The notes beneath the pieces are model-generated. The model saw only the letters and a program-made list of their open reading frames with translations, was not told where the DNA came from and did not search any database. Positions 4,313-49,086 of a DNA stretch of 64,000 nt are shown here, one piece after another. The translations under genes and the position numbers were made by a program. The stretch comes from Mustelus asterias (taxonomy: Eukaryota). Each line of letters begins with the position of its first letter. Positions within the stretch are counted from its first letter, which is position 1. Where the stretch lies: positions 17,670,001 to 17,734,000 of the forward strand of contig NC_135829.1 of assembly GCF_964213995.1 (NCBI RefSeq), written 5' to 3'.

Positions 4313-4367
4313 CAGCAACATGTTGGAAGAGAAGAAAAAGACCCACAAACAAAGCACCGAGTGCCAT
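4313..4367 (-). CDS. Gene B exon 1, paralogous signal peptide MALGALFVGLFLLFQHVA(G); rest of the gene lies beyond the left edge
   Basis: Same 55-nt length and phase-1 donor (GCTG|GTAAGG) as gene A exon 1; 14/19 identical residues; similar 5' UTR. Confidence 0.8.
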
Positions 4368-4470
4368 TTCAGATTCCTAGACCGTGCTTGCTGAGTAGTG
4401 GTTGCGTTCTTACCACCTATCTGTGAGAAAGAAGAGAAGCTGAACTTCTCGAGATGGAGTGAGAGATAAT

Positions 4471-4488
4471 AGCTTCCTGTTTGACCAA
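4471..4488 (-). promoter_or_regulatory. ETS-type motif (ACAGGAAG) upstream of the gene B leader
   Basis: Minus strand reads ttggtcaaACAGGAAGct, about 104 nt upstream of the ATG; conserved in gene A. Confidence 0.5.
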
Positions 4489-4682
4489 TGTAGATGAAAT
4501 GTGGGCTGTGACGTTGTGTTAATGGAACCAGGACAGCGGTTGAGATGTTTGTTTGATCCTCCAACCAGAAACGTCACAAAAAGCTCCGAAATACAAAGAA
4601 TGGAATTTAATGAAAAGAATTCAAAGTTCTGAATGAGTGAGAAAATGGGAGAGGAGCGAGCGGGTTTTTGGGGCGAGCTGCG

Positions 4683-7367
4683 AGTCACAATCTTATTGCT
4701 GTTCGTGCAAAATAACAGCCAGGATGCGATTCTTGCCAGTAGTGGGTGGAGCGGAGCCTAATCTCACCGATGAAGCCGGCTACTGAGCTCATGAGGCACC
4801 ATTGTGCAGGTGCCCCAATCTCCCGGTGCACGCACCCCCCATCAGTTGCTTCCTGTGTTGGTCTCCCCACCACCCCCAATCACCACATATATCGGCACCC
4901 CACCAACCCCTCAATTCCCCGCTTTGCTGAGTTTCCTCCAGCCCCCCAATTGCCCATTCTGAAGTGTTTCTTCCTCTCCCATTGCCCCCATTGCAGAGAT
5001 CCTCTCACTCTTCAATCCCCCCTTTGTGGACATTCCTCCACTAACCCCTTCAATTGTCACGGCTGCAGAGTTGCTCGCTCCCCCCCACTGTGGAGCTCCC
5101 TCACATTGCCTCCCCCCTCCCATGCCCCCACCTCACTCAGGCCCAAACCCCCTCAGGACCTGCCTCTTTAGCACTGCCCCTGGCATTCCCAGGGTGCCTG
5201 TTGGGCACTGCCAGGCTGGCACCGCCCAGGGGGCATGGCCCAACCCAGTCCCCGACAACCCATTGATGGAGACCAGCTGTGATTCTCGCCGGTGGGGACC
5301 CCAACCTATGAGTAGGTCAGGGCAAGTGAACCTGGACAGTCGGGTGCGGAACTCACTAATGACATTTAAATGATGTCTTTGATATTTCTGGGCGCCGATC
5401 TGATTTTGTCGGCAATACCGTGCCGGTGGATCAGGAGAGGCAAGAAACCGGGTGTGAAACGGGTCTGGGGAGCCGGTAAGATCGCACCCAAAGTGTATAT
5501 TCTGCGTGTGCTTCTGTGCATCATGATGAGAGTGCATAACACCGGAGCAGACATTCAACACATCCCGCTCCCCCAGCATGATGGAGATACTAACCATCTG
5601 GAAACACAAGGACCAGGATTTTCCAGTCTCGCCGCTGCTGGCTCAGAGCGATCTCCAGGAGCCCCAATGGAATTAAGTTACAACCATAGAACCATAGAAA
5701 CCCTACAGTGCAGAAGGAGGCCATTCGGCCCATCGAGTCTGCACCGACCACAATCCCACCCAGGCCCTACCCCCACATATTTTACCCGCTAATCCCTCTA
5801 ACCTACGCATCCCAGGACTCTAAGGGGCAATTTTTTTAACCTGGCCAATCAACGGAACCCGCACATCTTTGGACTGTGGGAGGAAACCGGAGCGCCGGAG
5901 GAATCCCACGCAGACACGAGGAGAATGTGCAAACTCCACACAGACAGTGACCCGAGCCAGGAATCGAACCCGGGACCCTGGAGCTGTGAAGCAGCAGTGC
6001 TAACCACTGTGTTACCGTGCCACCTGGAATTGGGAACCCTGCTGAGCTCCTGGTTCCAGGGGGGACATTAATTTGCCAGACGCTCCCCAGTCGGTTGACA
6101 ATTCCGCTCTTTAGAACTAATCAGAGGCTGGCAGCTCCCCATTGTTGGCAGCACCACCGGGCGCCGTGTCTGCTGCTGGTAATCCAACTGAGCCTTCACC
6201 AGGGGGTCATCTTTGGGGTCCCTGGAGAAGGACAAGTGCTGGATGGGATGGGGGCTCTGGGTGTGGTTTGCTAGTAAGCGAGGGGTAATGAGTGGGAGGA
6301 AAAAGTGGGGGATGGTGACTCTCAGCAGGCCCTCCCCACTTCCCGATGCCAGATCCCTTGATCTTGTGCTGAGTGACAATCAGCACCTCCCACTCCACAC
6401 TCGGCCACAAGCAAACCTGACAGAGATAACTTGTCAATCTCCCCAGATGGCGAGTCAGCCCCCCCCACAATGGCTTGAATACCAGTGACAGTCGGATGAA
6501 GCCGTGAGTTGCTCAGTCAAAGGCGTCAATCGGTATCCGGTGGGAAGGCTGCCCAGAGCCTGTCCCAGATTAAACTGGGTGGAGGCAGGGAAGCAGCAGG
6601 GGCCATATCCCACACCCTTAGAGCCAAACAGTTGCACCCTCCCCACTCACCTTCCTCTGCCCCTCCCCATCACCATCCACACCCTGAGAACCTGCCTTGG
6701 AGGTGAAGCATTAAATTCTGTCCCACTGCATCTGAACAGTGGAAGTGCATGATACTCCATCACTGTCTTTAACCACTATCTCAGCAAAGAAACAGGAAAC
6801 ATTGGAACTTCAGCCACCCTGTGGGCCATTCAGTGCCTGTATTTAGTTTGAGTTCATTGCATTTTTGCCTCAGTTTTCTCCTCTTGAGGCTCTCACTCTT
6901 CCTGTGTGAGCGTGGGCTAGAAATGGCTGCACGTTGTGTGATGTTGGGACCATCACAACCCCACACCCTGATCATGTTCAATGTGCATGGGCAAAGCAGG
7001 ACCAGTAAGCGCAGGAGGAGGCCATTCAGCCCCTCGAGTCTGTTTGTCCTTTCAATGAGACCATGATAAATCTTCACCATAACTCCATGTATCTCCCTTT
7101 GCCCCAAATTCCTTGGACGCCTTGACTGACCAAATGTTATCAGTCTGTGCCTTGAAGGCTCGAGTTATCCCTCAGTGTCCACGGCATTTTGGGACAAAAC
7201 AGTTCCAGATTTCCACTATCCTTGGTGGTAAAACACTTCTTGATTTCAAATCGAGATGACGAATCTCTAATTTGAATATGACCTTCCCCTGTTTTTCATC
7301 TGTATCGACTCTGTAAAGTAATTTGAACATTGGAATGGATAAAGAATTGGTAAACTAATGGGAAACA
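4683..7367. repeat. Local duplication, copy 2, with an extra SINE at about 5680-6021
   Basis: Colinear with 1-2333 apart from the SINE. Confidence 0.9.
5680..6021 (-). mobile_element. HE1-like tRNA-derived SINE
   Basis: tRNA-like head with A/B boxes (ggttagcactgctgc, gggttcgattcc) and a (tatggttc)n-type tail; absent from the duplicate copy. Confidence 0.9.
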
Positions 7368-8859
7368 ATAAAACGGGATAAATCAGACATTTTCAGGTTG
7401 GCAAAGAGTAAGTAGTGAAGTGATTGGCAATTCTAAGCTTAAACCCAGTGTCGTAACCTCGCTGGGGTCAATTGATTTATTCCATTCGATTGGGATAAAA
7501 TTCCTACTCAGCTCATCATTTCATTATCATTTCAAAGCAATCATTTATTGAGTGACTTCCCATCGCATGAGTTACATGTTGTGTATAATAAGCAGCAGAG
7601 CATTGTTCTGTCCATGGCGAGGGTTGGGCGGGGGGGCGGAAATTGATCTTCGTAACTTCAGGACAATCTGTGAAAGCTGTGGAGTGGCCTATCGCAGGAT
7701 GGGTGAGAAGATTTCTCTGCTCTTCAAGCAACTTCCACATCACAAGCTGTGAAAACACATCTGACATTGAGGAGCTCGGTCGCGTCGCTCACACTCACGG
7801 TCCCTCTGGCCTCTCTCTGGATAAGAGAAGAGATCACATTGAATGGGTTCCAGTTCAGGCCGGGGACAAATCATAAAATGGCACTGTGATGTGACATGGG
7901 ATAACGGAGCCTTAGATACAGCGCCGACTGGGAGGATTATACTCAAACCGTGAAACTACTTACATTTTAATTCTTGAATTTCACATTTGCCTCTGTCACT
8001 AAGAATACAGAAAACAAAACAGGTGAAATATTTCATAACATTTACTTCAAACAATGTCAAACATCTAGAAGTGGGATTTGGCATTTTTAAGTCAAGATCT
8101 TCCAAAACTCGATTGATTCAGGAATTATCCCTCTGGATTGGAATGCTGCCATTGTTATTCCATAATTTCAGATGTGTAGGATAGAGAAAGCAGGAAATAA
8201 TAGACCCATTAGTCTGATGTCTGTTGTGGGGAAGTTGCTAGTGTTAAGATTGTTTTCGCGAGACTGTTCCGTCCTTGATACAAAGGCAAACACCAACTGT
8301 TGTCCGATTCAAAAGTTCTTTATTCTTCTTACATATGCAAGCTGGCAAATCTTTGCTATGTAACCTCCACTCAGTGCTGGGAGTCAGGTAGCAAAGGCAC
8401 GCTGAATAATGGGACAGTCCCCCTTTATGTAGTTTTACAATCCTAATGGTCACATGCGGTCTGCTACAATATAGCTCATCACAAGACACCCTTTGTTCTA
8501 GTCAGGTTAACCATATCTAAGGTCGTAATATGGTTATGTTGAAAGAAAGCAAACTGTTAATGGGTAAGTTCGTTAATCACAGATGTCTTAAGCTTGTCAT
8601 TTCGAAATCAACTCACAGCAGCATGCGATATTTAACCCCATATCTCACTAAGATCTGCTACTAGAACTCAAGATCGAAAGATTTAGGAGCAGGAGTGTAG
8701 ACCCTTCAGGCCCTCAAGCCTGCTCCGCCATTGGCTGATCAGATTGTGGTCTTAACTCTACTATCCTTTCTGCTTCATACAATCTCGTCCATCAGGAATC
8801 TCTCGAACTCAATGCAAACATGTAAGTTCCTTCTAACAAACCTAGTTTAATTTAATAAG

Positions 8860-9740
8860 TGGTTCCCTAATTTGGTTGATAAGGGAGTGCATTTGGATGT
8901 GACTCATGTAGATTTCTGGACAGAACTCAATAAAGGCTGTCATCAAAAATGAAGTGTATGGAATTGGAGGCAATGACATGAATATGAAATTGGTTAGGAA
9001 GTATAGAAGGCAGACAATAGGGACAATAGGTATATAGTCACATTGGCAGGATGTAAATATCAGTATCTCCCAGAATCCCAGCATTTCACTATATTTATAA
9101 ATGACTTAGATAAAGCAATAGCGACCCAGATATCTGAGCTTGCTGATGACATTAAGGCACATTATGTAGTGTAGACTGCAGTCACAAGGGGACATTGATG
9201 GATTAAGTGTGTTAGCAAATTGGCAGCGACAGAGTTCAAAGTGGGGAAGTGTAAAGACATCATCCACATTGCACCCAAGACTGCTCAGAGTATTTCGAAA
9301 TGGTGAGAAGCTTAGAACTCTGGAGGAGCAGAGAGGGAATTAGGGTTTATTCATGTAAGTCACTAAAGGTTCATTGACAGGTACATAAAATAATGAAAAA
9401 GGCTGATGCGATGTTAACCCATCTCACAGAGGCTGGAGTACAAAGGGGTAGAAGTTATGCTCCAGTTCTGGGCACTGTACTTCTGGAAAGTTAATTTGAT
9501 GAACAGAGATTTATCAGGATGCTAAAAGGAATAAATTATGGGGTTGGGCTTGAATATATTAAGTGGTGATCTAATTGAGGTGTTTAAGATGTTTTCAGGA
9601 TTACACCAGGAAGATCGAGAGAAATTGCTACCTCAGCTGTGAGAGTCTAAAATCACGAGAGCCAACCGTGAGGTTAGAGCAGGGCTGTACAGAAAGCACA
9701 TCAAAGGGTAATGGAAATCTGGATCTCTTTCCCCAAAAGG
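8860..9740 (+). mobile_element. Old CR1-type LINE fragment
   Basis: Degenerate DF.K, INDLD, ADD and GDLIEVFK-like remnants. Confidence 0.6.
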
Positions 9741-10039
9741 AGGCCATTGAAGCCCTTGGGTATTTGTGGAAGTGCCCATCTGGTAGTGCCCATCTGGCAG
9801 ACTGGCAGTGTGCTGGGGCAGTGCCAAAGGGGTGGGTCTGAGTTGGTGATGGGGCCCGAGTGGAGGTCACGAAGGGGAGGGCTATGACGGCAGACAATGC
9901 AGGGGGAGCTATGAAACGGGGGTTGTGAACTGGTGGGAAATGAAGGGGGAAAGAAGGGGTGCAGCATGAAAGGGGATCCACTTGGAGGGCCCTATTGCCC
10001 CAATGCTGGCGATCTATGTCAGGGAGGGGTTGGGGAATC

Positions 10040-10385
10040 ATAGATTCCTAGAAACCCTACTGTGCAGAAGGAGGCCATTTGGCCCATTGAGTGTGCACTG
10101 ACTTTCTGAAAGAGCATCTTATCCAGACCCTATCCTCATAACCCCATGTCTTTACCCCACTAACCTACACATCTTGGGACACTGAGGGATGCGCAGGTCA
10201 GGTGCATGGGCAATGCACCTGACCTGCACATCTCTGAACCATGGGAGGAACTGGAACGCCCGGAGGAAACCCATGCAGACACAAGGAGAACATGCAAATT
10301 CCACACAGACTGTCACCCAAGGCTGGATCGAACCCAGATCCTTGGCGCTGTGAGGCAGCAGTGCTAACCACTGTGCCACCATGCC
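10040..10385 (-). mobile_element. HE1-like SINE
   Basis: Same head and tail as the 5680-6021 copy. Confidence 0.85.
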
Positions 10386-13906: not shown

Positions 13907-14989
13907 CCCATTGATGTAGACAGGGGCATGTTCTCCACTACACTTCCTAAGTCGATGACAATCTCTTTCATTTTGTTGACATTGAAGGAGAGATTATTGT
14001 CGTTGCACCAGCTCACCAGATTCTCTAACTCATTGCTGTACTCTGTTTCATCATTATTTGAGATCTGACCCACAAATTTGAAAAAACTTGTGGGAGTGTA
14101 TGGCGATTTTCCAGGAGGCTTCCCTCTGGTGCTATGTGTTGAGCTGAACTCAGCCAATACAAAGACTTGCAAACGACACTATGCAGTGAGGTTCTTCATT
14201 GATCAATACACATCGGGAGAGAAACAGCCGGAAGATTCCAACTCCTCTCTGATGTTACAGTATCTGTGCAAAACAGATACTCTCTTCCTTTTCAAAGGTT
14301 CGATTCTCCTGTCCAACCTGTCATCCAAACTGGATGATCCAATTGCATTAATACACACTATTTACCTTGGCCAATAGCACTCTACCTTCTCGCAGAATTG
14401 GGAATTAATTGGTCAATCGGACCTGAAAATTCTTACCCACCATTGCCTAGTAACCTTACCTATGCAAATCCAGTAGGTTCAAGGATTGCCCTCACTACCT
14501 GCAAACCATGGGAATGGAGAGGGAGTCATTTCCTTCTGTCTGTTAGCTACCCCTTATCAGTAGAAACTGAATATTTCTAATCACTGCAACCAGAAGCTAA
14601 ATGCCTCCATTTAATTTAAAACCTTGGTACCTTGAAGCCGTAGGGTCTCCTATTGATAATCGAGAATATATTCTGTACCTTATTGTTTCCAAAGAATGTG
14701 GCCTGCCTTGTTCTGCTCATTTCCCATTATGCTTTGGGGCAGGCTGCATCTTGGCTAAAGCTTACAAGACATTTAAAAATACATTTTAAATCTACAATAC
14801 ATGTTCAAAATTCTCTACCAATGATTATATATGTGTCTATACAGACAATACCTTCGCATTACATGTATATATATGATGTACTTTGTGATTCCTTATGGTA
14901 TATGATTCCTTATGATCCCTATTCTAAACTAGTCTACTTTGTTTTAATAGTGTTCAAAATCCCAGGGGTTTCTGTACCCCCTTCTACAG

Positions 14990-18196: not shown

Positions 18197-18447
18197 TCAG
18201 TTGTCCTCCATTTTAGAATAAATCGGATTTTCTTCCATTTCTAGCGGGCAATGCTTTGGGTCATTTTCCTCCAGGCGGGGCTGTGTCACCGTGTTTCCAA
18301 GACTCTCAGTCCCAGGGTAGCTGATCAAAGAGTAAGTCTGGTCATTGGATGAAGCAATGGGATCTTCCTCTTTCAGCGATGTGTGGTCTTTGGGCTCAAT
18401 GGCTGAAGAGCTTTCAACCTGACTCCCATGGTTCAGGTGATCTTTGC
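18197..18447 (-). CDS. Gene A exon 10 (terminal), QTYSLI and ENPIYSKM motifs, TGA stop
   Basis: Acceptor ctctcttaatatctag|; open frame of 83 codons including the stop at 18199-18197; missed by the ORF track. Confidence 0.8.
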
Positions 18448-21400
18448 CTAGATATTAAGAGAGATTGTGTTTAATGAGGATTAGCAGCAATCGGGGACAA
18501 ACAATTATAGCGGACTGTTTCACTACATGGGATAAATGTTCAGGAGTTTTAGAGCAGTTACAGGGTTGGATTATATTGAAAGAATGAAACCACTTACATT
18601 TCCCTCCCTGGGTTTCAGTTTTGTCTCCATTACTTAGGAAAATAGAAAATGAAACAGTAAAAATTGAGTCACAAAAGATTCAAACAATATTAAACAGCTC
18701 CAAGTGGAGACTTGATTCAACCATTTTTTCCATGGGATCTGGATTTGAATCTAGCCCAGACTGAAATTCTCTCATTCATATTGTTTCTCTCATTGTTCTT
18801 CTTATCTCTCTGATCCTCCCTGTCTGTCCTTCACATTGTCTCTCTGATCCTCCCTCCCTCCCTGTGTGTATCTCTCCTTGTCTTTCTGTGTCTCTCTCAT
18901 TGACTCCATCACGAGGATGACCAACGCCCAGTGCAAGGGGTGGGTGTGCCTCTAAACCTCAGTGGGGTGGGGTGGGGTGAACTACACACAATCCATTCAG
19001 CTACAGGAGGACCCAAAACCAGGCCAGGCCAAATGCATGCTCAGAAACGACCTGTAAAAGAAGAAACTGGGGACAAAAGACGTCCCAGGAAGGCCTGAGC
19101 CACAGGGACACAGGGTGAAAGGCCAACCTACGGGACAGTCCTGAAAATGCAGGATGGTTGGTCAGCCTGGTCAGGATTCTCCAGCTCTGCCCATGGCAGG
19201 AAACATCACGGGTAGGACGGAAAATTTGACGGACCAGCAAAAGGTCCATTGACTTAGAGTGGAACAAGTGGTGGCAGAGGCTGGGGATTGGATGGGTAGA
19301 AGAACAAAAGAGAAGTTCTGTCATTGAAGGAAGGATAGGCGAGATTAAATGACGAAAGGTTCCAGGGTAAAAAGTCAAAAGTCGTGGTAAAGGGACGTAA
19401 AGAAACAAAAGCTGTGTCTAGAAGAGGTGTGAATGACAGGAAAGCAACCATCTGAATGTAAAGTAAAGAAACTGAGAAAGAAGTAAGGGAAAAACAAACA
19501 AAGCTTCAAAAAGAAAGATGCAAAACAAAATGAGGGCAGAGATTATCATTTAAAATTGTTGCCCAGAAGACTGTAAAGTTGAAATTGAGGTGCGGTTCCT
19601 TGTACTTGTATTGAATTTCATTGGAACTTTGCCACAAGCCAAGGACAGAGCAAGGTGGAGAATTAAAATGTCAAGTAACTGGGAGCGTGGGGTCACGCTC
19701 ACGGACTGAATTGGAGTGTTCCACAAAATGGTCACCCAGTCTGTACTTAGTCTCCCCAAAGTAGAGGAGGCAATGTAATAAGCAGCAAATACAAAAACTA
19801 ACTACATTTTGTAAAAACGGGTAAATCGCTGTTCCACTTGGAATGAGTGTTTGGGGCCTTGAATGGTGAGAAAGGAGGAGATAGAAGGTCACAAGTTGTA
19901 TCTCTCATTCTTGCACTGAAAGGGAGTGTTGGGGGTAACCAAGGGGTGAGCCAGGTTCTTGTGAAGGGAACAGTCTCTTTAGAGTGCTGAAAGGGGAGGG
20001 GATGGGTAGATGTGTTTGGTGATTGGAGGTAGTGGCAATGGAGGACCATCCATTGACTATGGAGACTGGTGGGGTGGGAGATGAGGATATGGGATTCTGA
20101 AAGGAAGGGGAAGGGGAGGGAGCAGAAGTGCAGGCAAAAGTACAAACAGGGCCAAGTACCTTGCTGTGGTGAACCATTGTTGGTTCCCACCAGGTAGTGC
20201 TGAGCCATGGTCTGACCAGTACTATGAGTCTGTATATATGTTACTGTTGGGGTTAGGGTTGGGCTGTTCTACCTGTTAATATTGTTGTTATGGTACACCC
20301 CAGTCGGCTCCGCCTCCTGGGAGAGGTATAAAGGTCACTGCTCTGCCTGGTGACCCTTTAGTCTGGGATCGTGTACTGTATATGGTAGCTCTGTTATTGT
20401 TGGCAATAAAAGCCTTTATTTCCCGAGTACATCACGCCTCTCGTGTGTTATATCACGCATCAATTTTCTTGCCAACAAGTAAATTCTTTTTTTTTGAAAA
20501 AAAAAACGACGAAGAAAACATGGAGCAAATGCTTAAATCCGAACGGTTTACGTTGGACCCACGTGCGGCGGGCGCTTCGAACACTTTCGACCACTGGTTG
20601 AAGTGTTTCCAGGATTACCTCGACGCCTCCACAGCGGTCAATGACGACGCCGACAGACTCCGGGTCCTCCACGCGAGGGTAAGCGACGCTGTATACCTGG
20701 TGATCCGTGGGGCCGCCGACTACAAAGGGGCCCTCGAGCTTCTCAAGAAGCGATACAACAAACCGCCGAACGAGATGCATGCTCGATATCTTCTAGCCAC
20801 TCGACGGCGGCAGCCCGGCGAAACGACGGAACAGTACGCGTGCGAGCTTCAACAGCTAGCCAGAGCCTGCAACTGCAAGGCAGTGTCGGCAGACCAGTAC
20901 ATGAACGACCTAGCTCGAGATGCGTTCGTGGCGGGAATCGGCTCGTCGTACATCCGTCTTCGCATGTTGGAGCAAGGTAACCTCGATCTCACTAAATCCA
21001 TAGAGTTAGCTGACGCTCTAGAAACGGCCTCCAAAAGTCTGGCGATGTACCCCGACGACCACGTGGAGACAGCGTGGCAGGGGCAGTCGCAGACTCCACT
21101 TCATTCAGCGGGACCGAAAAACTGCGCGATCGCGTTCCCAGCCTCGGACCTGACGACGGCAGCAGCTCCAGGTGGCCCACGGTGTTACTTCTGTCGGGGG
21201 GTGAAACACCCTCGGCAGCGATGTCCAGCTAAAGCGGTGTTGTGCTCCGGCTGCGGCAAGAAGGGGCACTATTCCAAGGTATGCCGGTCCAAACTTCCAT
21301 CCAAGAACAGCAGTGCGGCGTGTGACTCCCCAGAGCCGGCCTCCTTGTCTTCTGCATCTTCAAGGTCTTCCGCAACGTGCGATTCCAGGACGTCGCCATT

Positions 21401-27400: not shown

Positions 27401-30400
27401 AATCCTATGTAATTTGTAGTTTATACAGATCAATGCGCAAATTGGGACTTTTACTCAAATAGGTGGTCTGTGAGAAATGCATGTCCAATTTCCATGCCCC
27501 CACCCCCTCCCCCCAAAGTTGTGGTTGTATGGAACATGGTTAAGAGAGTGCAGAGAAAGCTTTGTACTATGCCTAATCTTTACAGCCTGATCTTCAGTGC
27601 CCCAACCAATACAGGCTGGTCAAAGTGGAACAGTGTCCATTCATCAGCATGAGTTCCTTCACTACATTGACTATTGTCTAATCCTCCATTCCCCAACAAA
27701 AATCGTTGTTGCCAGTACTGGAAGGGATTCTGAAATCCTATTTACCCTTGAACTGATTCTTTGATCAGACAGTACACATGCTCTGTGGAGGCAGAGGTTG
27801 AGTGGGCGCCCTGTCCTTCTCCAGGCCCTAGCTGGCTCTTTGTCATTGGAACTGTGGTCACTGCGTACGCAACATGCTCATTTTCATCTGTCTGTTCCCT
27901 GCTGGGAAACACCGAGTATGGTAAACCTAGAAAGAAGGATTGGAACACAAGATCTGGTTTTAGTTTTAACTCTCCAGATGATAGGTTCGGTAGACCTGGG
28001 TAGTAATTCTGGTCACTTACATTCATCTTCCTGTGTCAGTTGCACATCACCGTCCCTACAGTTATAAAAAAAAGATCTATAAATATTTCAATAATTGGAC
28101 AAAACCATGCAGAAATGTCCAAATACTGAGTGAATCCTCTGCCTACCTCTGTCCTGGTGCTGAGGATCCTTCGCAAATGTAACAAGATTGGAAAGGCAAA
28201 GTTAAAAATCTTTGTAAGGAGTCTGTATTAAATACAATTTAAGACTTAGATTCAGCTTTTTAAAACTCTGACTTACCTTTGGCCATTTGTCGTTTTCTTC
28301 TGACTATGCAAATTACTCCAACAATGCAAATGAGCACAACCACGCACACTATGCCGATAATCACAGGTATAATTTTATGGTTTGAATCTGCAGAGAAGAA
28401 GCAACAGTAAATTCAGGATGTACAATCCTGTATGACGGATCATTCCAGTTAGAATCTAGAATAGTCAATGGTGAAGGAAGGAAATTGAACCAATTTACAA
28501 CGGGTACAAACTGTACAAACAGACCCAGAATCTCTCAGCTGGAACCCCTGACATTGAATGATTCATGTTGCAGATTGTCTTACTTTTTAGAGTATCAAGA
28601 AGCAGAGGTGATTTTAAGTGTTTGTACCGTTGGATATTAGAAATGAGTTATAGATTTACATGAGTTTAACTTAGTGTTCCTGTATAAGGAAAGGTAAACC
28701 TCCAGTTAGATTCATATTAAACAATGTTTGCTTGTATGGAGGGATTTTTTAGAATCATAGAATCCTACAGTGCAGAAGGAAGCCATTTGGCCCAGTGAGT
28801 CTGCACCAAACACAATCCCACCTTATTCCCATAACCCCACATATTTATCCTGCTAATTCCCCTAACACTAGAGTCTATTTATCATGGCCAATCAACCTAA
28901 CCCGCAAATCTTTGGATTGTGGGAGCACCCGGAGGAAACCCATCCAGACACTGGGAAAATGTGCAAACTCCACACAGACAGGAATTGAACACAGGTTCTT
29001 GGTGCTGTGAGGCAGCAGTGCTAACCACTGTGCCACCATTTCAGTTCAAACTGTGGTAACATTATGCTAAGAGAGTTTACAGCATGTAAAATAGATAAGA
29101 GCTTAGGGAAAGAATTAGATGTTGTTTAGCAACCAAGGTTTACTTATAGGGGAAGAGACCTTACTGTGTTCTTAGTTTAACTGAGCCAGAGTAGAAGGAG
29201 CTTAGCAGTGAGAGAGGGAACATCTCTCACTGCTTTGCCAGAAGAAAAGCCATATAATAGAGTAACGGGCAAGGAAGCAAGTGTCAGAAATCTAAAAACA
29301 GCCAGTTAAGGAGGATGAAGAGAAGTCTCCAGGAAGTCTGAAGTTAAAGGAACAGAGGAAACTGGAACAAGGTTACAGACAGAGTTGAGAAGCTGAAGCG
29401 TTTGCTGGTGAAAAACAGAGATATCTGAAATTATTTCAAAGTTTTTGAGATTTACTATAGCCTGGAAAGTGATAGTTGAAGCAATTGTGAAGTAATTAGT
29501 CACTGGATCTTTTAATGTTTGTGTGAAAGCTTGAAAGCATTCAAGACAAAGGAACATTGAAAGGAGAGCTATAAAACCTGGAAGTGGATCCTTGTTGGGG
29601 AAAAGTGAAAGAAATAATTGTTTGAAAGAAGATTCTAAAGTGTGTCTTTTTGAGAGTGGGGTTTGGAATCACTCATGTGGAAGTCAGAGTCCAGTAAGAT
29701 CAGTTGGCTCATGGTGTGAGAATCATCTGGGGAGATTTGAGAAGAAGTCCACAGAAGTTCACTTGGGTGGCGTCTGCCACTTGGTTTCAGAATGGAGTGT
29801 GTTTGACCACAGTTAGCCTGTGGTTTAAAGGGATTGTGTGTTTACTGAGACCATTATAGCATAAGATATATTTTGTAACCTCTGTCATCCTTAAAATCCA
29901 TGTATATTTGTGAAGATAAGTGGGAATGAAGGAGTATTGTATCATAGTCAAACTTTTCATGTTCAATAAATGTTTTTTTTGTTGTTAAAAGGTAATTGTT
30001 AGTCCTGTGACTCTCTTCATTCCCATTTTCTAAAAGATATGTAAAAGTTATGGTCTTTTAAGCCAAGGTTCCATTTGGAATCATCCGGTCCAGTAGTAAC
30101 ATACACAGAGATACACTCACTGTTAGTCACTGGAGATATTCCAGATGTTGAGGTGAGGGTGTCTGGGGATTCACTACTTGAGATTGGACTCCTTGTTACC
30201 TGGTCTGAGAAACATAATTTCCCAGTTAGAATCTGGAATGATAAATGACGAACGATGGAAATTGAGCCAGTTTACAACAGGTACAAAATCCCTCAGCTGG
30301 AATTATTGATATTAAATGATTTAAATCATATCGTGCATTGTCTGACTTACCTTCATTATTTGTAGGAGTTGCACTGCTGGTCACTGGAGATATTCCAGAT

Positions 30401-33400
30401 GTTGAGGTGTGAGTGTCTGGAGAGTCTGCACTTTTTGTCACACTGAGGGAGATGTTTGCTGTAATCTTCCAGACAGGTTTCCCTGAAGCCTGACCGTGTA
30501 CAACACAGAGATAGCTCCCAGTGTCCAACTCCTTCACTGAGTGAATAGTGAGGTTGTGAGTCTGGATTTTATTTGTTGGATTGTTTGAGCTTTGGTTGGA
30601 GATTCTTTGTGATGACTCTTTATCCACACAGCAGTGTGTGTTAGAATGTGGGCTATAACCCTCAATATGAACAGAGTGCAGACACTTGTTGATATTTCCA
30701 GATATGATCCAAAGCAGAGTGAAGGGCAGAGATTTTCTATTCTCAAACTGGCAGGGTAAAGTCACATTCTCTCCCTCTGCTACAGTCAGTGACGAGGAAG
30801 TTTCAACAGCAGAAAATACTTCATCCGAATCTAGAAACAATATTGAAAAGAATAATTTTACTCAAATAATCTCCAACGCGGTACTTTGTCAAAGGGTTTC
30901 CAAAAGTCCATGTTAACTACATTCACTGCATTTCTCCATCTACTTTGTCTGTTACCTCCTCAACAGTTTATCAAGAACATCGGGCAGAATTTTTCGTTCT
31001 TTTGTGGCCTGCCAGCTCCACTGCCGGCTTTTCCCACCATAATTTTTGATACTTGTTCAAAATAAATTCAGGAGGTGGGTCCCAAATGTCACGCTGGCGG
31101 GGCAGCCACTGATTGAACCTGTCCCTCCAGCAACCTCAGACTTCAAGAGACCCGGCATCTTTCAAACCAAACCAATAAAAAAAAGAGGGGATCCCACCGT
31201 CCCCCACCCCCCCCCCCCCCCCTCCACGGACATGGGGAGCCCGCTCCCTCCCATCGCCCTCCACTTCCACGCAGACGCCCCTTCCCAGCGATGCCCCCAT
31301 CACCAGGGAATACCATCTCCCACAGACCTCCCCATTGGAAGCCCACTCTCTCCGGCAATTCCCTCTGGCACTGCAGTGCCAAGGGGCAGTGTCAGGAGAT
31401 GCTGCCAGGACAGTTTCCAGGCATGACCCTCTACCCCCTTGGGGCTGTACTTCCTGTGCACCCAAGGTGGGTTCTCTTCGCTAGGTCCCTGTTTGTGCCA
31501 TGGTGGCACAGCGGTTAGAACTGCTGCCTCACAGCGCCAGGGACCCGGGTTCGATTCCCGGCTTGGGTCACTGTCTGTGCGGAGTCTGCACGTTCTCCCC
31601 GTGTCTGCGTGGGTTTCCTCTGGGTGCTCTGGTTTCCTCTCATAGTCTGTTTAGGTGCATTGGCCGTGCTAAATTCTCCGTCAGTGTACCCGAACAGGTG
31701 CCACACAGGGATTTTCGCAGGGGATTTTCACAGTAACTTCATTGCAGTATTAATGTAAGCCTACCTGTGACTGTAATAAATAAACTTTAAAACTTTAAAC
31801 TGTTTGTCAAAAGCTGTTATAAACCCCACTGAAGCGAGGGGGGAAATTGAAGGGTAAGGGGACAATAGAGTGGGAAGCCCGTTAATGAGATTAAAATGTG
31901 TGGCAATGGGATTCCCGACCTTTCATGGCAGGAACTAACATCACAGACGGGAAATCCCGACTGCGTAAAAGCCATTTGGGGACTCCCGTTGATTCTCCGG
32001 CCCCACCGCCATTCCCACTGACCAAAAACGGGGGAAAATCCTGGCCATCATCTTTGGAATCTGTCGGTTGCGTCTCAATTTTTACTCTTTATTTACATGC
32101 TTGATAATTTCATCTCCATAAAGAATCTATAATTGTCTCGAATGGCAGCTATTTGTCCTAATGCCTCCCCTAATATCTCAGCTTAAATCTTCCCAATGTC
32201 CCCCTGTGATAATTCCCCCGATATCTCCAGTTCACTCACCGTCCGGGTTTATCACAAAGAACAAGTTGTGGTTTTCACATCCCTCCCCTGTCAGGGTTTT
32301 CCAGTTTGGACATTTTGATGATTCTGTGGAATCCTGAACCGTGCAGGTAAATATCATCGAATCATCACATAGCATCACATCGAATGTCAGTGAATTCATT
32401 TCACTTTCATTTCTTTTGCTTGTTTGACACTGCAGCTTCTCTTTCTGTTTCTCATGATCGATATTTTCACAATCCTGCATTTTCTTCTCTTCTGTCTCAC
32501 ATTGTATTTTCTCAATTTCTATTTCAGCACTGAAATCCCGAATGCTGCACAATGTTCCGACATTCCCAGCACCAGTGGGTGTGTTGCATTGCAGAGTGGT
32601 GACATCTCCTGATCCTCGAAAATGGAGATAGGTGGATCCTGCAGGGATAAGGACAGAATTGGACGGAGATAAATAACATTCCATACAGGAAAGATAATTA
32701 AACATTAATGTTCATCAAAACCTCGCGCAGTAAATGAACAATTGTGATTTTTGTTAGTCCACACAATGAGCTGGTCCTGGACCAAATTGACATGGGGAAG
32801 GGTAAGGTATTGGAGGTGTTGGCAGCCTTAAAAGTGAATAAATCTCCAGATCCTGTTGAATTGTGCCGTAGGCTGCTGTAGGATGCAAGAGAGGAGATTG
32901 CAGGGGCTCTGACCCAAATTTTCAATTTCTCTCTGGCCACGGGGAGGTGCCAGATGACTGGAGAACAGCTAATGTGGTTCCCCTATTTAAGAAGGGTTGT
33001 CGAGATAAACCAGGGAACTACAGACCAGCGAGTCTCACAGCAGTGAATAGAAAACTATTGGAGGAACTTCTGAAGGAGAGCATCTATTTCCACTCAGGGA
33101 TAGTCAGCATGGCTTCGTCAGAGGGAGGCCTAACAAATTTGATTGAATTTTGACCATGTGTGTAGATAAGGGTAGCGCAATCGGTTAGGTTTATATGGAT
33201 TTCAGCAAAGCTTTGAAAAGGTCCCACATGGGAGACTTGTAAAGAAGGCAAATGCACATGGGATACAGGGTAATTTGATAAAGTGGATTCAAAATTGGTT
33301 TAGCAGTAGAAGTTAGAGAGTGATGGCAGAAGGTTGCTTCAGTGACTGGAAGCCAGTTTCCAGTGTCATACCGCAGGGATCTGTGCTGGGCCACCTATTA

Positions 33401-45400: not shown

Positions 45401-48400
45401 CAGATGAACAATTGTTCTGTGTTTTGTACCCCGCCGGCCTTTGTTTTCAAAGGAGGGGTGAATGTGGTGAACCATTGTTGGTTTCCACCAGGTAGTGCTG
45501 AGCCATGGTCTGACCAGTACTATGAGTCCGTAGATATGTTACTGTTGGGGTTAGGGTTGGGCTGTTCTACCTGTTAATACGGTCCTTATGGTACACCCCA
45601 GTCGGCTCCGCCTCCTGGGAGAGGTATAAAGGTCATTGCTCTGCCTGGTGACCCTTTAGTCTGGGATCGTATACTGTTTATGGTAGCTCTGTTATTGTTG
45701 GCAATAAAAGCCTTTATTTCCCGAGTACATCCAGCCTCTCGTGTGTTATATCGCGCATCAACCTGTATCAATGCAGCCAGTACCATCCTCTGAAATTGCT
45801 CTCCTAACAAGTTTAGTGGTTGCTCCTCTTCACCTAAGGCTCCATTCCTGGCCTTCTCCACACATACGTGCTGCCTTTAGAGTGTTACCAGGAGTCAGCC
45901 AATATAGCCAAATGTAGCAAAGTCAATCCCTCACTTCATCCCTCCATCGCTGCCCCCAGTGTGTTACTGTCTGATTTCGAATTTGACATTAAGTTCTTCT
46001 CAAACCAGAACTTTCACCAACTTAACATTGGAAAAATCAAAGCCACCCTACTTGCCTCCAATGCACACTGAAACTCCTATCTGACCCTGGGCTGAACTTC
46101 AAAACCACCACCAAATGTTGTGACTTCCTCTCCCAAATATCATCTGCCTCCATTCCTATCTCACACTGAATGCCACTAGAATCCTCCACAACTTCAATCC
46201 CTCAACCACTCACATCTCCAATCCTTTCCTCACTGGCCTCCTGAACATTACAGATCAGACTCCAGATCAACCAGAACCCATCACCTACATCCTGTCCTAA
46301 TGGCATCCCGCTCCATAATCATTCCTATCTTCCCCTCAAGCACTGAGTTTAACCCTCCTAGGACACAGAATAGCATTCTAGGCCCAATCATTCTCAGCTG
46401 CTTCACCAATGCTTTTCCCGCCATTATAAATATAGAGTTGGTGTTTACTAATGATTGCACAGTGCTCAGCATCATTTGCCATTTCCCAGTTATTGAAGTC
46501 ATCCATACCCACATGCAGCAAGACCTGAACAACATCCAGGCTTGAACTGATAAGCAACATTCACACCACAAAACTGCAGACAATGATCATTGCTTACAAG
46601 AGAGAGTCTAACCATCTCCTCCTGGCATTCAAAGGCATCACCATGGTCATATCCCCCACTCTCATTATTCCTGGTAAGTCATCATGTTCAGAAACAAAAC
46701 TGGACCAGTCAAAACTGGAAGAATGCTATGGCTCCTAAAGCAGGTCAGAGGCCTCCTGTCTCCCCAAAACATTACCAGCTACAAGGCACAGGTTAGGAGG
46801 GTAATGGAATACTCTCCACTTTTCTGGGAGAGTGCAACTGCAATTCAAGAAGTTCATCACCATCCAGCATGATTTAGGATGACTGGCTCCCCATCTATCA
46901 ACTTAGACATTCATTCTCTTCACTGTGGTGGCATCATGGTTGCAGTGTGTTCCATCTGTTAGATATGTTGCAGCAACTTACTCTCCTTCGGCAGCACCTT
47001 CCAAAATCCACAACCTCTACTATCTAGAAGGGCAAGGGCATGGGAGCATCATCACCTGTAAGTTCCCCTCCAAGTTACACACTGTCCTGATTCAGACATA
47101 AGTCACTGTTTCTTTATTGCAGCTGGGTCAAATCCTGAAACTGTCTACCTATTAGCAATGTGGAAGCGTTTACACAACATAAATCGCAATGATTCAAGAA
47201 GACGATCTATCACCACTTTCTTAAGAGTTGGGCATTAAATGTTGGACTTCGTCAACAACACTCAAACCAATATTGAATTCTTTAAAAGGTTACCAATCCT
47301 GTGTGTCCCAGTGCATTGATCTAGGATACAGCAATCAGTCTTCAGATCCCACATCCTGCGATTCTCTCCCTTACCACCTACCCACCTTAGCATATCTATG
47401 GTAAAAGTTTGTTTAAAACCTACCTCTCCAACCAAGTCACTTCCATTCACTCCCCTCCTACCTCAAGCTCATACCAATCCCCACGCTTCCACATTTGCAA
47501 AATAACACAGACTGTTCCCCACTCTGACCAAAATCCATAAATTCAACTTCTTGTTCTCATGATGTTAACTGTGGCTCAGTGACCATCACTCTCACCTCAG
47601 AGTTAGAAGATTGTGGGTTTAAGCACCCCCTCCAGAGATGTGAGTTTGAAATCTAACCTGGCACTCCAGTGCGGAACTGAGGGAGTGCTGCATGGTTGTA
47701 GGTGTCATCTTTTGGATGAGATGTTAAAGCGTGGTCTGCCCTCTCTGTTGTAGGGTAAAAATTCTGCAGCAACTATTATTCAGAAGAGTAGAGGAGTTTC
47801 CATTGGTGCCTTGTCAATATTTACCAGCTAACTAACATCACTGAAACAATCAGGCCATTATCACACTGCTGTTTGTAGGATCTATATGTGAAAATTGATG
47901 CCAAGTTTCCAGCTTTAGAACAGAAACCACATTTAGAAAGTACTTCATTGACTGTAAAGTGTTTGAATGTCCTGACATTGTGAACGGCACTATATAAATG
48001 TAAGTCTTTCTTTCATTTCTTGTAGTGAGCATGTTTCTGATGAGCATATCGAGACTATTAGAAAGGTATTTTGTGCAGTGTGTTTGAAGCTCATTTTTGA
48101 ATGGTTAAGCTGTTAAACTGTAATAACGGTGCAGTTACCCAGAGCTCTGAACAGATGCTATCATAGATTGACTGATCTGGAGCTGCAGGATCTGACTCAC
48201 ACCATTGATCTGATAACAGTACTGACAAAAACACCACTTACCAAGCTGCACCAGAGCTCAAATACAAACTAAAACTCCCAAATCAGACTCAAGTCATGAG
48301 CTGAATTTGGATTGAGGGTCGGAGCAAACATCACTTATCATTCGAGGAGCAGAAATTATCTTCAGACCCCTCCTCCATCACGTAGGCTGACTCTCACTCA

Positions 48401-48950
48401 AGTAGTCTGATCACTCCCTAATCACGCAGTCTGACCCCTCAATCACATAGTCTGGCCCCCATCACTAACCTGGCCCTCAATCATGTCGTCCACATAGTCT
48501 GACCCCCCATCACAAACTCTGATCTCTTCCCCGTCACACAGTCCAACCCACCCAATCATCGAGTCTGATCTCCACCCTCACACAGTCTGAGCCCTACGAC
48601 ACACTCTCATCCCCCCATTTGCACATTCTGACCCCCCCTCCCCCCCACCCCCGCCCCCCCCAATCCCCCCTCCCCCCCAACCCCCCCCTCCCCACCCCCC
48701 CACACCCCACCCCCCCTTCCCCACCCCCCCTCCCCACCACCCCCCCACACCCTACCACCCCCCTCCCCCCCCACCCCTCCCCCACCCCTCCCCCCACCCC
48801 CCCCACCCCCCCCACCCCTCCCCCCCTCCCCCCACCCCTCCCCCCACCCCTCCCCCCTCCCCCCCTACCCCTCCCCCCCCCCCCCCACCCCTCACCTGTA
48901 GCATGATGGAACAGAAGCAAAAGACCCACAGATAGAGCACCGAGTGCCAT
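18197..48950 (-). CDS. Gene A (whole span): 10-exon type I membrane IgSF receptor, 550 aa (leader, Cys-rich Ig-like D1, V-set D2, S/T/P stalk, TM, Tyr-motif tail); uncharacterised family
   Basis: Manual exon chain: 48950-48896, 32638-32240, 30830-30351, 30204-30121, 28387-28277, 28168-28147, 28055-28021, 27926-27746, 18632-18598, 18447-18197. Lengths 55+399+480+84+111+22+35+181+35+251=1653 nt, open throughout. All introns GT..AG with matching phases 1,1,1,1,1,2,1,2,1. Confidence 0.85.
18598..18632 (-). CDS. Gene A exon 9, 35-nt cytoplasmic exon (NGDKTETQGGK)
   Basis: Acceptor ttttctattttcctaag|, donor AAT|GTAAGT, phase 2-1; resembles exon 7. Confidence 0.75.
20165..24865 (+). mobile_element. 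Full-length Ty3/Gypsy LTR retrotransposon, copy 1 (Mag-like double zinc knuckle)
   Basis: LTRs 20165-20462 and 24568-24865 (298 bp, TG..CA); TSD CTTGC; PPT aaaggaggggtgaa; domain order gag-PR-RT-RH-IN. Confidence 0.97.
20520..24504 (+). pseudogene. Gypsy copy 1 gag-pol, open from gag through RNase H, with integrase frameshifted by an 11-bp deletion near 23288
   Basis: CYFC..H..C/CSGC..GH..C, FDSGS, YLDN, ESDAS, HHCC, SVD/HSDRG/GQVER. Copy 2 retains tggaacatgcg at the junction. Confidence 0.9.
25360..26500. repeat. Pyrimidine-rich minisatellite, about 20-bp unit TTTCTCGCTGTCTCTCTCCC
   Basis: Direct reading of the tandem units. Confidence 0.95.
27746..27926 (-). CDS. Gene A exon 8, cytoplasmic Tyr motifs LPYSVF, VAYAVT, HVYCLI
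   Basis: Acceptor ccttctttctag|, donor AAGG|GTAAAT, 181 nt, phase 1-2. Confidence 0.8.
28021..28055 (-). CDS. Gene A exon 7, 35-nt cytoplasmic exon (DGDVQLTQEDE)
   Basis: Acceptor ttttataactgtag|, donor AAT|GTAAGT, phase 2-1. Confidence 0.75.
28147..28168 (-). CDS. Gene A exon 6, 22-nt cytoplasmic microexon (GSSAPGQR)
   Basis: Pyrimidine tract then AAG|, donor AG|GTAGGC. The phase 1->2 switch is required to keep exon 7 open. Confidence 0.7.
28277..28387 (-). CDS. Gene A exon 5, transmembrane helix (IIPVIIGIVCVVVLICIVGVICIV-RRKR)
   Basis: Acceptor ttcttctctgcag|, donor AAAG|GTAAGT, 111 nt, phase 1-1; hydrophobic run followed by a basic stop-transfer motif. Confidence 0.9.
28750..29037 (-). 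mobile_element. HE1-like SINE
   Basis: Head ggcacagtggttagcactgctgcctcacagc on the minus strand. Confidence 0.85.
30121..30204 (-). CDS. Gene A exon 4, Ser/Thr/Pro stalk (DQVTRSPISSSESPDTLTSTSGISPVTN)
   Basis: Acceptor tgtttctcag|, donor AACA|GTGAGT, 84 nt, phase 1-1; repeats SPDTxTSTSGISPVT of exon 3. Confidence 0.75.
30351..30830 (-). CDS. Gene A exon 3, V-set Ig domain D2 plus start of stalk
   Basis: Acceptor ttgtttctag|, donor GAAG|GTAAGT, 480 nt, phase 1-1. EGENVTLPC, LLWI, NLTIHSVKELDTGSYLC V-set hallmarks. Confidence 0.92.
30982..32046. mobile_element. Harbinger-like non-autonomous element with a nested SINE (about 31500-31795, plus)
   Basis: Imperfect TIRs gggcagaattttt / gaaaatcctggcc; 3-bp TSD ATC. 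Confidence 0.55.
32240..32638 (-). CDS. Gene A exon 2, atypical Ig-like domain D1 (9 Cys, no core Trp)
   Basis: Acceptor ccttatccctgcag|, donor GACG|GTGAGT, 399 nt, phase 1-1. GDVTTLQC (B-strand-like) and LCDDSMIFTC (F-strand-like). Confidence 0.8.
32770..33920 (+). mobile_element. CR1-type LINE fragment with internal deletion
   Basis: PDDWRTANVVPLFKKG..PGNYRP; FTRMLSGM..; (tatga)n-like tail. Confidence 0.9.
34080..36230 (-). mobile_element. Nested stack: old LINE 3' end > HE1-like SINE (about 34168-35841) > CR1 (34226-35548)
   Basis: SINE halves rejoin as gagtctgca|ccgaccacaatcc; tgccttc is duplicated around the SINE; CR1 RT motifs QHGF, DFSKAFD, GVPQGSVLGP, KFADD. Confidence 0.85.
37555..37871. 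mobile_element. hAT-family MITE
   Basis: 14-bp TIRs cagtggttcccaaa / tttgggaaccactg; perfect 8-bp TSD CCTTATAC. Confidence 0.92.
37956..38395 (-). mobile_element. Penelope 3' end/pseudo-LTR with hammerhead motif at 38053-38089
   Basis: Homologous to 13500-13906; CAC-CUGAAGA..GAAA-GCU-U-GUG. Confidence 0.85.
38440..38785 (-). mobile_element. HE1-like SINE
   Basis: Similarity to the other copies. Confidence 0.8.
39140..40220 (+). mobile_element. Rex1/Babar-type LINE 3' fragment inserted in a CR1 remnant (about 38960-40930)
   Basis: GAPQ, KFADDTTVVGRI, (caaat)n tail. Confidence 0.88.
41056..45760 (+). mobile_element. Full-length Ty3/Gypsy LTR retrotransposon, copy 2 (decayed ORF)
   Basis: LTRs 41056-41353 and 45463-45760; TSD ACCTG; PPT; stops at about 41720 and 43002; frameshifts at about 42090 and 44870. 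Confidence 0.97.
46350..47270 (+). mobile_element. Old LINE RT/3' fragment
   Basis: QNSILGPIILSCF..MQQDLNNIQA remnant. Confidence 0.55.
47560..48015 (+). mobile_element. Old SINE, DeuSINE/SacSINE-like
   Basis: tRNA-like head tggctcagtg..tgggttt; tail ctatataaatgtaagtctttc. Confidence 0.5.
48630..48890. repeat. C-rich low-complexity tract (G-runs on the minus/transcript strand)
   Basis: Direct reading; abuts the exon 1 donor. Confidence 0.9.
48896..48950 (-). CDS. Gene A exon 1, signal peptide MALGALSVGLLLLFHHAT(G)
   Basis: ATG, hydrophobic leader, phase-1 donor ACAG|GTGAGG; close paralog at 4313-4367. Confidence 0.85.
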
Positions 48951-49067
48951 TGCAGATTCTTAGATCATGTTAGCCCTTCAGAAACTGGATAACTGTTTCA
49001 ACATTACACATCGACTCGTAACCAAAAAAGAGAAGTGGCCCTTTTAAGGGTTGTGGAAGAGAAAAAC

Positions 49068-49086
49068 AGCTTCCTGTTGCACCAAC
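49068..49086 (-). promoter_or_regulatory. ETS-type motif (ACAGGAAG) upstream of the gene A leader
   Basis: Minus strand reads ttggtgcaACAGGAAGct, about 118 nt upstream of the ATG; conserved in gene B. Confidence 0.5.

What the first reader, a model, noticed from the sequence alone, without database searches (positions are those of the whole stretch)
4313..49086. Tandem multigene cluster: two paralogous leader exons with a shared ETS-motif promoter
Seen: leaders at 48896-48950 and 4313-4367 have identical length and phase, 14/19 identical residues, similar 5' UTR (gccattgcagattcttagatcatg vs gccatttcagattcctagaccgtg on plus) and a shared TTGGT..ACAGGAAGCT about 104-118 nt upstream of the ATG. 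Established: GGAA-core ETS sites are typical of TATA-less leukocyte promoters. Inference: a head-to-tail receptor family, possibly including paired inhibitory and activating members.
Basis: partly seen in the sequence, partly recalled or inferred. Interest (0 to 1): 0.72.

Follow-up and report, generated by a model that had tools for sequence, protein, structure and literature searches.

The report
Unnamed paired immune receptors in sharks
The two matching signal-peptide exons belong to twin shark genes of an unnamed surface-receptor family found from sharks to echidna; the twins keep nearly the same outer part but different signalling ends, so they likely act as a brake and an accelerator for the same target.

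Summary
The window is from the shark Mustelus asterias. Gene A (48950-18197, minus, ten exons) equals RefSeq XP_078056272.1: Cys-rich D1, IgV D2, stalk, uncharged TM, 182-residue tail with six tyrosines. The 4367-4313 leader equals the N-terminus of LOC144480428: D1 and D2 92-93% identical to A, but an Arg/Asn-bearing TM and an 18-residue tail without tyrosine. Both types occur in seven shark species. Ectodomains group by species and TM exons by type, the pattern of an old pair kept in step by ectodomain-only homogenisation. The short tail is a shared exon type read in a shifted frame. Relatives are on record, all unnamed, in sturgeon, gar, teleosts, lungfish, amphibians, reptiles, birds and echidna; none was identified in therian mammals. 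NITR, CD300 and CD28 hallmarks are absent. Limits: only two genes were found in Mustelus; gene B's body lies outside the window; Mustelus A has no strict ITIM; the ETS role, start site, expression, ligand and adaptor are untested; an activating-type tail at 8.0-7.5 kb has no gene body. A known kind of system in an apparently undescribed family.

The parts
49068..49085 (-). Shared upstream motif TTGGT-N3-ACAGGAAGCT of gene A (GGAA core at -124); ETS role untested
48896..48950 (-). Gene A (LOC144480561) exon 1, signal peptide, 55 nt, phase 1
32240..32638 (-). Gene A exon 2, D1: Cys-rich (9 Cys), no Pfam hit, predicted Ig-like beta-sandwich
30351..30830 (-). Gene A exon 3, D2 V-set domain with three extra Cys (201, 218, 219) plus S/T-rich stalk
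30121..30204 (-). Gene A exon 4, second stalk exon (skipped in RefSeq isoform X3)
28277..28387 (-). Gene A exon 5, uncharged transmembrane segment
28147..28168 (-). Gene A exon 6, tail, 22 nt
28021..28055 (-). Gene A exon 7, tail, 35 nt
27746..27926 (-). Gene A exon 8, tail with LPYSVF, VAYAVT, HVYCLI
18598..18632 (-). Gene A exon 9, tail, 35 nt; entered in phase 2 in A; its paralogue is entered in phase 1 in short-tailed genes
18197..18447 (-). Gene A exon 10, tail end with QTYSLI and NPIY, stop
7964..7998 (-). Orphan 35-nt exon with intact AG/GT; paralogue of exon 9 (22 of 35 nt); in the shifted frame it gives the last 10 residues of gene B's RefSeq protein exactly
7500..7816 (-). Orphan terminal exon of short-tailed type (matches a Heptranchias short-tail isoform; AATAAA at 7549)
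4471..4488 (-). Shared upstream motif of gene B (GGAA core at -110)
4313..4367 (-). Gene B leader exon; 18 of 18 residues equal the N-terminus of LOC144480428
1..2337 (.). About 90% copy of 4682-7367 (less a SINE at 5682-6023), lying in gene B's first intron or before a further leader just outside the window

Best explanation
The two leaders open twin genes of an unnamed two-domain immunoglobulin-superfamily receptor family that likely form a paired receptor: gene A has a long tyrosine-bearing tail and is predicted to dampen cell activation, while gene B has a 92-93% identical outer part, polar residues in its membrane segment and a short tail without tyrosine, and is predicted to activate through a separate adaptor chain. 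Shown: exon structure and protein of A; protein of B by database record; both types in seven shark species; ectodomains that group by species and membrane exons that group by type; a short tail encoded by an exon-9-type exon in a shifted frame. Inferred: the pair arose once, before these shark lineages split, when a duplicate lost tail exons 6-8 and gained an outer Arg and an inner Asp in the membrane helix; repeated gene conversion or unequal crossing-over has since copied D1-D2 between the twins, so both keep binding the same fast-changing ligand, probably at D1. Inferred from other families: A's phosphotyrosines recruit SH2 or PTB proteins (SHP-1/2, SHIP or Dok type); B pairs with a CD3-zeta/FcR-gamma-type dimer; B counters pathogens that exploit A.
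For: Ten-exon model, all introns GT-AG, equals XP_078056272.1 letter for letter. Short-tailed versus own-species long-tailed identity in 6 of 6 species compared: D1 91-99%, D2 92-99%; versus other species' short-tailed forms at most 56-62% and 67-76%; TM exon only 27-56%. Ectodomain tree, 21 rows: every species with more than one row forms a starred clade; the short-tail label needs 8 changes for 8 rows, and 0 of 200 bootstrap trees unite it. TM tree, 15 rows: one split by type, 100/98, in 200 of 200 bootstrap trees. Short-tailed TMs: outer Arg in 6 of 7, Asp in 5 of 7 (Asn in Mustelus, His in Hemiscyllium), juxtamembrane Cys in 7 of 7; Val at the Asp position in 8 of 8 long-tailed TMs. Among 8 long-tailed orthologues D1 is the most variable part: 51% mean identity against D2 71%, TM 64%, tail 64%. 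The same pattern is described for KLRC, Ly49 and PIR (PMC3210942, abstract) and Xenopus CEACAMs (PMC5112662, passages). An Arg at the top of the TM couples CD89 to FcR-gamma (PMC13107469, passages).
Against: None of Mustelus A's six tail tyrosines fits the strict ITIM; 7 of 14 long-tailed shark rows have one. The FxxDT/FxxNT motif of CD16/CD64 is absent from the short-tailed TMs; the white-shark form lacks the Arg and Mustelus B has Asn, not Asp. A 2014 screen found no FcR-gamma chain in sharks (PMC4016189, passages). Gene B's body and TM exon are not in the window, and an exact match to its tail exon lies upstream of its leader, which a simple head-to-tail A-B map does not explain. Only protein models were compared: no conversion tract, synonymous rate or dN/dS was measured. 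The Mustelus leaders are only 72% identical. No ligand, expression or signalling data.
Confidence: 0.68

Rival explanations
1. The twins are real, but the signs are wrong: A is a co-stimulatory or adaptor-docking receptor (YxxI and NPxY sites) and B is a non-signalling decoy or chaperone that uses its polar TM residues and extra Cys to dimerise with itself or with A.
For: No strict ITIM in Mustelus A; NPxY in 7 of 47 family rows, all long-tailed sharks; the Arg sits at the very edge of the helix and is missing in 1 of 7; juxtamembrane Cys in 7 of 7 short-tailed forms; FcR-gamma reported absent from sharks.
Against: Strict ITIM/ITSM sites occur in 7 of 14 long-tailed shark rows and in turtle, kiwi, gecko, caecilian, frogs, lungfish and sturgeon; ectodomain-only homogenisation with conserved polar TM residues is the pattern described for opposing pairs.
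Confidence: 0.2
2. The 4313 leader is not the working start of an adjacent gene B but an orphan or alternative first exon left by a local duplication; the locus in Mustelus is rearranged and the short-tailed gene starts at another leader or ends at the 8-kb exons.
For: 1-2337 is a 90% copy of 4682-7367, the stretch just upstream of leader B, which predicts a further leader about 315 nt left of the window; gene B's tail exon matches 7998-7964 exactly although this lies upstream of leader B.
Against: Leader B has an intact ATG, donor and upstream motif and matches the RefSeq protein at 18 of 18 residues. This reading changes the map, not the existence of the pair.
Confidence: 0.15
3. The family is a divergent branch of a named one (CD200R, CD300/MDIR, NITR, DICP) and is already described under another name.
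For: Extra Cys in the V domain, a juxtamembrane acidic-x-x-PY motif (34 of 47 rows) and an NPxY end recall CD200R1 (from memory); MDIRs are activating/inhibitory Ig receptors of skate (PMC3031540, passages). The paper library lacks most subscription journals.
Against: 0 of 47 rows have a J-like [FW]GxG or the CD300 WCR/YWC motif; no named receptor family among the 20 of 84 profile hits looked up; PDB sequence and fold searches give only generic Ig matches; six locus ids occur in 0 papers.
Confidence: 0.1

Closest known systems
Paired opposing receptors with ectodomain homogenisation (KLRC/NKG2, Ly49, PIR; CEACAM1/CEACAM3 and Xenopus Ceacams)
   Same: Near-identical ligand-binding domains within a species, signalling ends conserved by type across species (papers).
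   Different: Different protein family and a cartilaginous-fish lineage; genes appear to share one orientation (Xenopus pairs are reported as inverted); no ITAM in the short form; short tail made by a frameshifted exon.
CD89, NKp46, NKp30 (Arg at top of TM) and CD16/CD64 (polar residue in lower TM)
   Same: Short tail with an outer Arg and an inner Asp/Asn in the membrane helix, positions that couple those receptors to gamma or zeta dimers.
   Different: Both residues in one helix; no FxxDT/FxxNT; V-type rather than C2-type domains (domain types recalled); adaptor unknown in sharks.
CD200R1 / CD200R-like
   Same: Extra disulfide-forming Cys in a V domain, acidic-PY and NPxY tail motifs, paired forms (recalled); tyrosine motifs recruit Dok2.
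   Different: Here the V domain is membrane-proximal under a Cys-rich D1; CD200R did not stand out in any search.
MDIR of skate, CD300, SITR
   Same: Ig receptors with activating and inhibitory forms in a cartilaginous fish.
   Different: No WCR/YWC motif in 47 of 47 rows; MDIR sequences were not compared directly.
NITR and DICP of ray-finned fish
   Same: Two Ig domains, extra cysteines, inhibitory, activating and secreted forms.
   Different: No J-like motif; D2 has five Cys, not six; family reaches tetrapods and echidna.

Membership tests
Paired opposing IgSF receptors | Two genes with near-identical ectodomains | tested here: met
   D1 93%, D2 92% in Mustelus; 91-99% in 6 of 6 species
Paired opposing IgSF receptors | Long-tailed partner with canonical ITIM (S/I/V/L-x-Y-x-x-I/V/L) | tested here: inconclusive
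   0 of 6 tyrosines in Mustelus A; 7 of 14 long-tailed shark rows have one; ITIM-like YxxI sites in A
Paired opposing IgSF receptors | Short-tailed partner with charged TM residue | tested here: met
   Arg in 6 of 7 and Asp in 5 of 7 short-tailed forms; Mustelus B has Arg and Asn, tail 18 residues, no Tyr
Paired opposing IgSF receptors | Homogenisation limited to the ectodomain | tested here: met
   Ectodomain tree by species, TM tree by type; protein level only
Paired opposing IgSF receptors | Shared ligand, opposite signalling, leukocyte expression | not testable with these tools
   Needs binding, signalling and expression data
NITR | J-like FGxG motif in V or I domain; six-Cys I domain | tested here: not met
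   0 of 47 rows with [FW]GxG; D2 has 5 Cys (definition)
CD300 / SITR | YWCR/WCR motif in strand C | tested here: not met
   0 of 47 rows (definition)
MDIR (skate) | Sequence kinship with MDIR1-4 | not tested
   No MDIR sequence was on hand; none of the 20 profile hits looked up was named MDIR
DICP | Four conserved Cys per domain at DICP positions; MHC linkage | not tested
   Positions are in figures not held; synteny not available
CD28/CTLA4/PD-1 family | Single extracellular V domain | tested here: not met
   Two domain exons and a two-domain model (definition)
CD200R | Specific sequence or fold kinship with CD200R | tested here: inconclusive
   Not among the rows shown; V-set matches are tied at Z 12-14; resemblance is recalled
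CD16/CD64-type gamma-associated receptors | FxxDT or FxxNT in the TM | tested here: not met
   Absent from 7 of 7 short-tailed TMs (definition)
ETS-driven TATA-less promoter | GGAA core at a mapped start site, bound by an ETS factor, no TATA box | tested here: inconclusive
   Core present in both; TATATA at -167 in A; start site unknown

The most novel reading that the evidence does not exclude
An overlooked checkpoint receptor of jawed vertebrates, kept from sharks to echidna and lost in marsupials and placentals, gained an activating twin in the shark ancestor by dropping three tail exons and reading the next in a shifted frame. The twins have been re-matched by ectodomain-only conversion in every shark lineage since, against a pathogen ligand aimed at the fast-changing D1. 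The activating helix, with a CD89-like Arg and a CD16-like Asp together, would show how such receptors coupled to a zeta-type adaptor before or without FcR-gamma.
Probability: 0.3. Interest if true: 0.82.

Novelty: new variant of a known kind. Interest (0 to 1): 0.64.

Why it matters
It adds an apparently undescribed receptor family to the immune toolkit of jawed vertebrates and places ectodomain-only concerted evolution of a receptor pair in sharks, across seven species; the cases read here are from mammals and frogs. The family has members in salmon, axolotl, frogs and duck, so its function can be tested in tractable animals. It also gives a concrete probe for an open point: which adaptor activating receptors use in cartilaginous fish.

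Tried and rejected
No whole genome is held, so the DNA left of the window was not seen. Sequencing runs: no RNA holder listed; no reads were laid, so splicing and expression rest on RefSeq models alone. My first idea, three alternative tails on gene A, was dropped: RefSeq X1 joins exon 8 to exons 9-10. No second D1, D2 or TM exon in the window by local alignment, tblastn or six-frame profile search; a weak D1-like hit near 60.9 kb (E 0.002) did not recur. Atlas hits for D1 (0.89-0.93) and for the echidna protein (CD7-like, CTLA4-like, JAML, VSTM4) are leads only. Earlier scan notes: nothing by place or sequence. Ten paper searches listed no description of this family; one search gave nothing on shark adaptors. 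No supplements were read; those of the CD28-family and holostean papers could hold related sequences.
Full report
Observation. Both leaders are real: minus strand, 55 nt from ATG to a phase-1 GT donor, 46 of 55 nt and 14 of 19 residues identical counting the split Gly. The shared motif is TTGGT-N3-ACAGGAAGCT (three wildcards; the two-wildcard form has 0 matches). It occurs exactly twice in the window, at 49085-49068 and 4488-4471, ending 118 and 104 nt before the ATGs; 3 of 2000 shuffles and 12 of 1947 random segments reach the alignment score. The surrounding 200 nt are loosely homologous, so the motif is a conserved island in paralogous DNA. Its role is untested: gene A has TATATA at -167, and a horn-shark protein model translates through the stretch from the GGAA core towards the ATG (49074-48976), so the motif may be transcribed.

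Gene A. Ten exons between 48950 and 18197, all with GT-AG introns, give a 550-residue protein equal to XP_078056272.1 of Mustelus asterias (LOC144480561, 'uncharacterized'). It has a signal peptide, D1 (133 residues, 9 Cys, no Pfam hit), D2 (V-set, E 2e-9, with extra Cys 201, 218, 219), an S/T-rich stalk, an uncharged TM and a 182-residue tail with six tyrosines: LPYSVF, VAYAVT, HVYCLI, QTYSLI, ISYPGT, NPIYSKM. None is a strict ITIM; 7 of 14 long-tailed shark rows have one, mostly at the first site. With a 47-row alignment AlphaFold2 gave mean pLDDT 82 and two beta-sandwich domains; with 19 shark rows D1 did not fold. D2 matches V-set domains without a standout (Z 12-14, at most 25% identity). 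D1 is likely a divergent V-type domain but was not searched alone.

Gene B. The 4367-4313 leader equals the first 18 residues of LOC144480428, recorded on a contig of the same length. Its D1 and D2 are 93% and 92% identical to A's, but its TM carries an outer Arg and an inner Asn, and the tail is 18 residues without tyrosine (isoforms X1 and X4 end in another, repeat-like exon). Its body is not in the window, so adjacency is inferred. Only these two loci were returned for Mustelus; those searches show one representative per 90% cluster.

An old pair kept in step. Short- and long-tailed forms were both found in Mustelus, Scyliorhinus torazame, Carcharodon, Heterodontus, Hemiscyllium, Pristiophorus and Heptranchias. 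In the 6 species compared pairwise, the short form matches its own long form at 91-99% (D1) and 92-99% (D2), but other species' short forms at no more than 56-62% and 67-76%; the TM exons of a pair share only 27-56%. In the ectodomain tree (21 rows) rows group by species with starred support and the short-tail label needs 8 changes. In the TM tree (15 rows; three extra long-tailed paralogues, one model without TM and one with a truncated tail were left out) the two types split at 100/98. The short type has an Arg in 6 of 7, an Asp in 5 of 7 (Asn, His in the others) and a juxtamembrane Cys in 7 of 7; 8 of 8 long types have Val at the Asp position. D1 is the fastest-changing part among 8 long-tailed orthologues (51% against 71, 64, 64). 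This is the pattern named merohomogenization for KLRC, Ly49 and PIR (PMC3210942, abstract and outline seen) and shown for Xenopus CEACAMs (PMC5112662, passages). Conversion itself is inferred from proteins; unequal crossing-over would look the same. Three other species' leaders are identical within the pair, whereas Mustelus' are 72% alike, so here the tract stops short of exon 1.

How the short tail is made. A's exon 9 is entered in phase 2; entered in phase 1, straight from the TM exon, it reads VMETKLKPREGN, close to the short tails of Heptranchias and Pristiophorus. So the short form is likely a duplicate that lost exons 6-8 and stops early by frameshift. The window holds such an exon at 7998-7964 (22 of 35 nt identical to exon 9), which gives gene B's last ten residues exactly, followed by a terminal exon matching a Heptranchias short-tail isoform (0 of 1000 shuffles reach the score; the match to the Heterodontus tail is weaker, 22 of 1000). 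These exons lie upstream of leader B and have no ectodomain or TM exon of their own. With the 90% copy of 4682-7367 at 1-2337 this points to local duplication and deletion; I could not resolve it.

The wider family. A profile of the shark proteins found 84 representatives at E up to 0.001; 57 of 84 carry both V-domain signature patterns and 8 of 84 look like unrelated Ig proteins by eye. Of 20 looked up, 18 have a species: whale shark, sturgeon, gar, salmon, catfish, lungfish, newt, axolotl, two frogs, caecilian, turtle, alligator, skink, gecko, kiwi, duck and echidna; two eels were named. All are 'uncharacterized', 'hypothetical' or 'Ig-like', save a duck record named after an acetylcholine receptor. 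The D2 tree (66 of 74 rows; 8 lacked the cutting pattern) roughly follows the vertebrate groups, with many open forks, and leaves echidna without a sister row. No marsupial or placental member was identified, but most rows have no name and absence is not shown. Non-shark members mostly have tyrosine tails, many with ITIM/ITSM sites. The shark short-type TM was seen only in sharks; four non-shark rows have an Arg at the TM edge and were not assessed.

Mechanism and rivals. Most likely A is a brake and B an accelerator for one ligand (0.68). An Arg at the top of the TM couples CD89, NKp30 and NKp46 to gamma or zeta dimers, and a lower Asp/Asn does so in CD16 and CD64 (PMC13107469, passages). The shark helix has both positions but not the FxxDT motif, and a 2014 screen found no FcR-gamma in sharks (PMC4016189, passages), so the adaptor is open; CD3-zeta is my guess. 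Rivals: a co-stimulatory A with a decoy B (0.2); an orphan leader in a rearranged locus (0.15, compatible with the pair existing); a branch of a named family (0.1).

Comparison with known families. J-like and CD300 motifs are absent in 47 of 47 rows (definitions from bioRxiv 10.1101/2021.06.11.448072 and PMC3031540, passages). CD28-family members have one V domain (PMC11599192, abstract and passages). A likeness to CD200R1 is recalled and was not confirmed (PMC4412112 passages give only the Dok2 link). MDIR and DICP were not compared directly. Ten searches of the open library, one with six locus ids (0 papers), listed no description of the family; subscription journals and supplements were not seen.

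Verdict. A real, annotated but uncharacterised gene pair. The kind of system is known; the family, its range from sharks to echidna, the frameshift origin of the short tail and the lineage-by-lineage homogenisation appear undescribed. Interest 0.64.

Noticed in passing
window 20165-24865 and 41056-45760: Two copies of one 4.7-kb LTR retrotransposon, 95.7% identical, in two introns of gene A, each with its own 5-base target-site duplication, so two separate recent insertions; the first keeps a 433-codon integrase-like frame.
   Followed up: partly
window 7998-7500: Tail exons of a short-tailed gene with intact splice sites but no gene body; gene A's TM exon could in principle splice to them and give a short, uncharged decoy form.
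   Followed up: partly
window 1-2337 versus 4682-7367: Composite 2.3-kb segment duplicated at about 90%; if the copy continues, a third leader lies about 315 nt left of the window.
   Followed up: partly
window 16218-15700: A stretch 2 kb past gene A's stop with a good splice acceptor and similarity to the orphan terminal exon at 7816-7500; possibly a 3' UTR or alternative last exon of A.
   Followed up: partly
window 48600-48890 and 25267-26580: A 290-nt C-rich tract directly after gene A's leader donor (G-rich on the transcribed strand) and a 1.3-kb CT-rich simple repeat in intron 8.
   Followed up: no
P0001 / P0033 (Heptranchias perlo): The short-tailed gene carries the D1-D2-stalk unit twice, one copy nearest one long-tailed paralogue; its isoforms end in four different tails.
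   Followed up: partly
P0067 (unnamed record): Shark-like long tail joined to a different Cys-rich ectodomain without the V domain; perhaps a ray or chimaera form with a swapped outer part.
   Followed up: no
P0106 (Aix galericulata): Family member named 'Neuronal acetylcholine receptor subunit alpha-7'; likely a misplaced name, perhaps a hint that the gene neighbours CHRNA7 in birds.
   Followed up: no
P0008 (Cetorhinus maximus): Basking-shark paralogue model ends before the TM: a secreted form or an incomplete model, with a locus number next to the long-tailed gene.
   Followed up: no
window 52300-53800: Broken Harbinger-like transposase frames on the minus strand upstream of gene A (family label recalled).
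   Followed up: no
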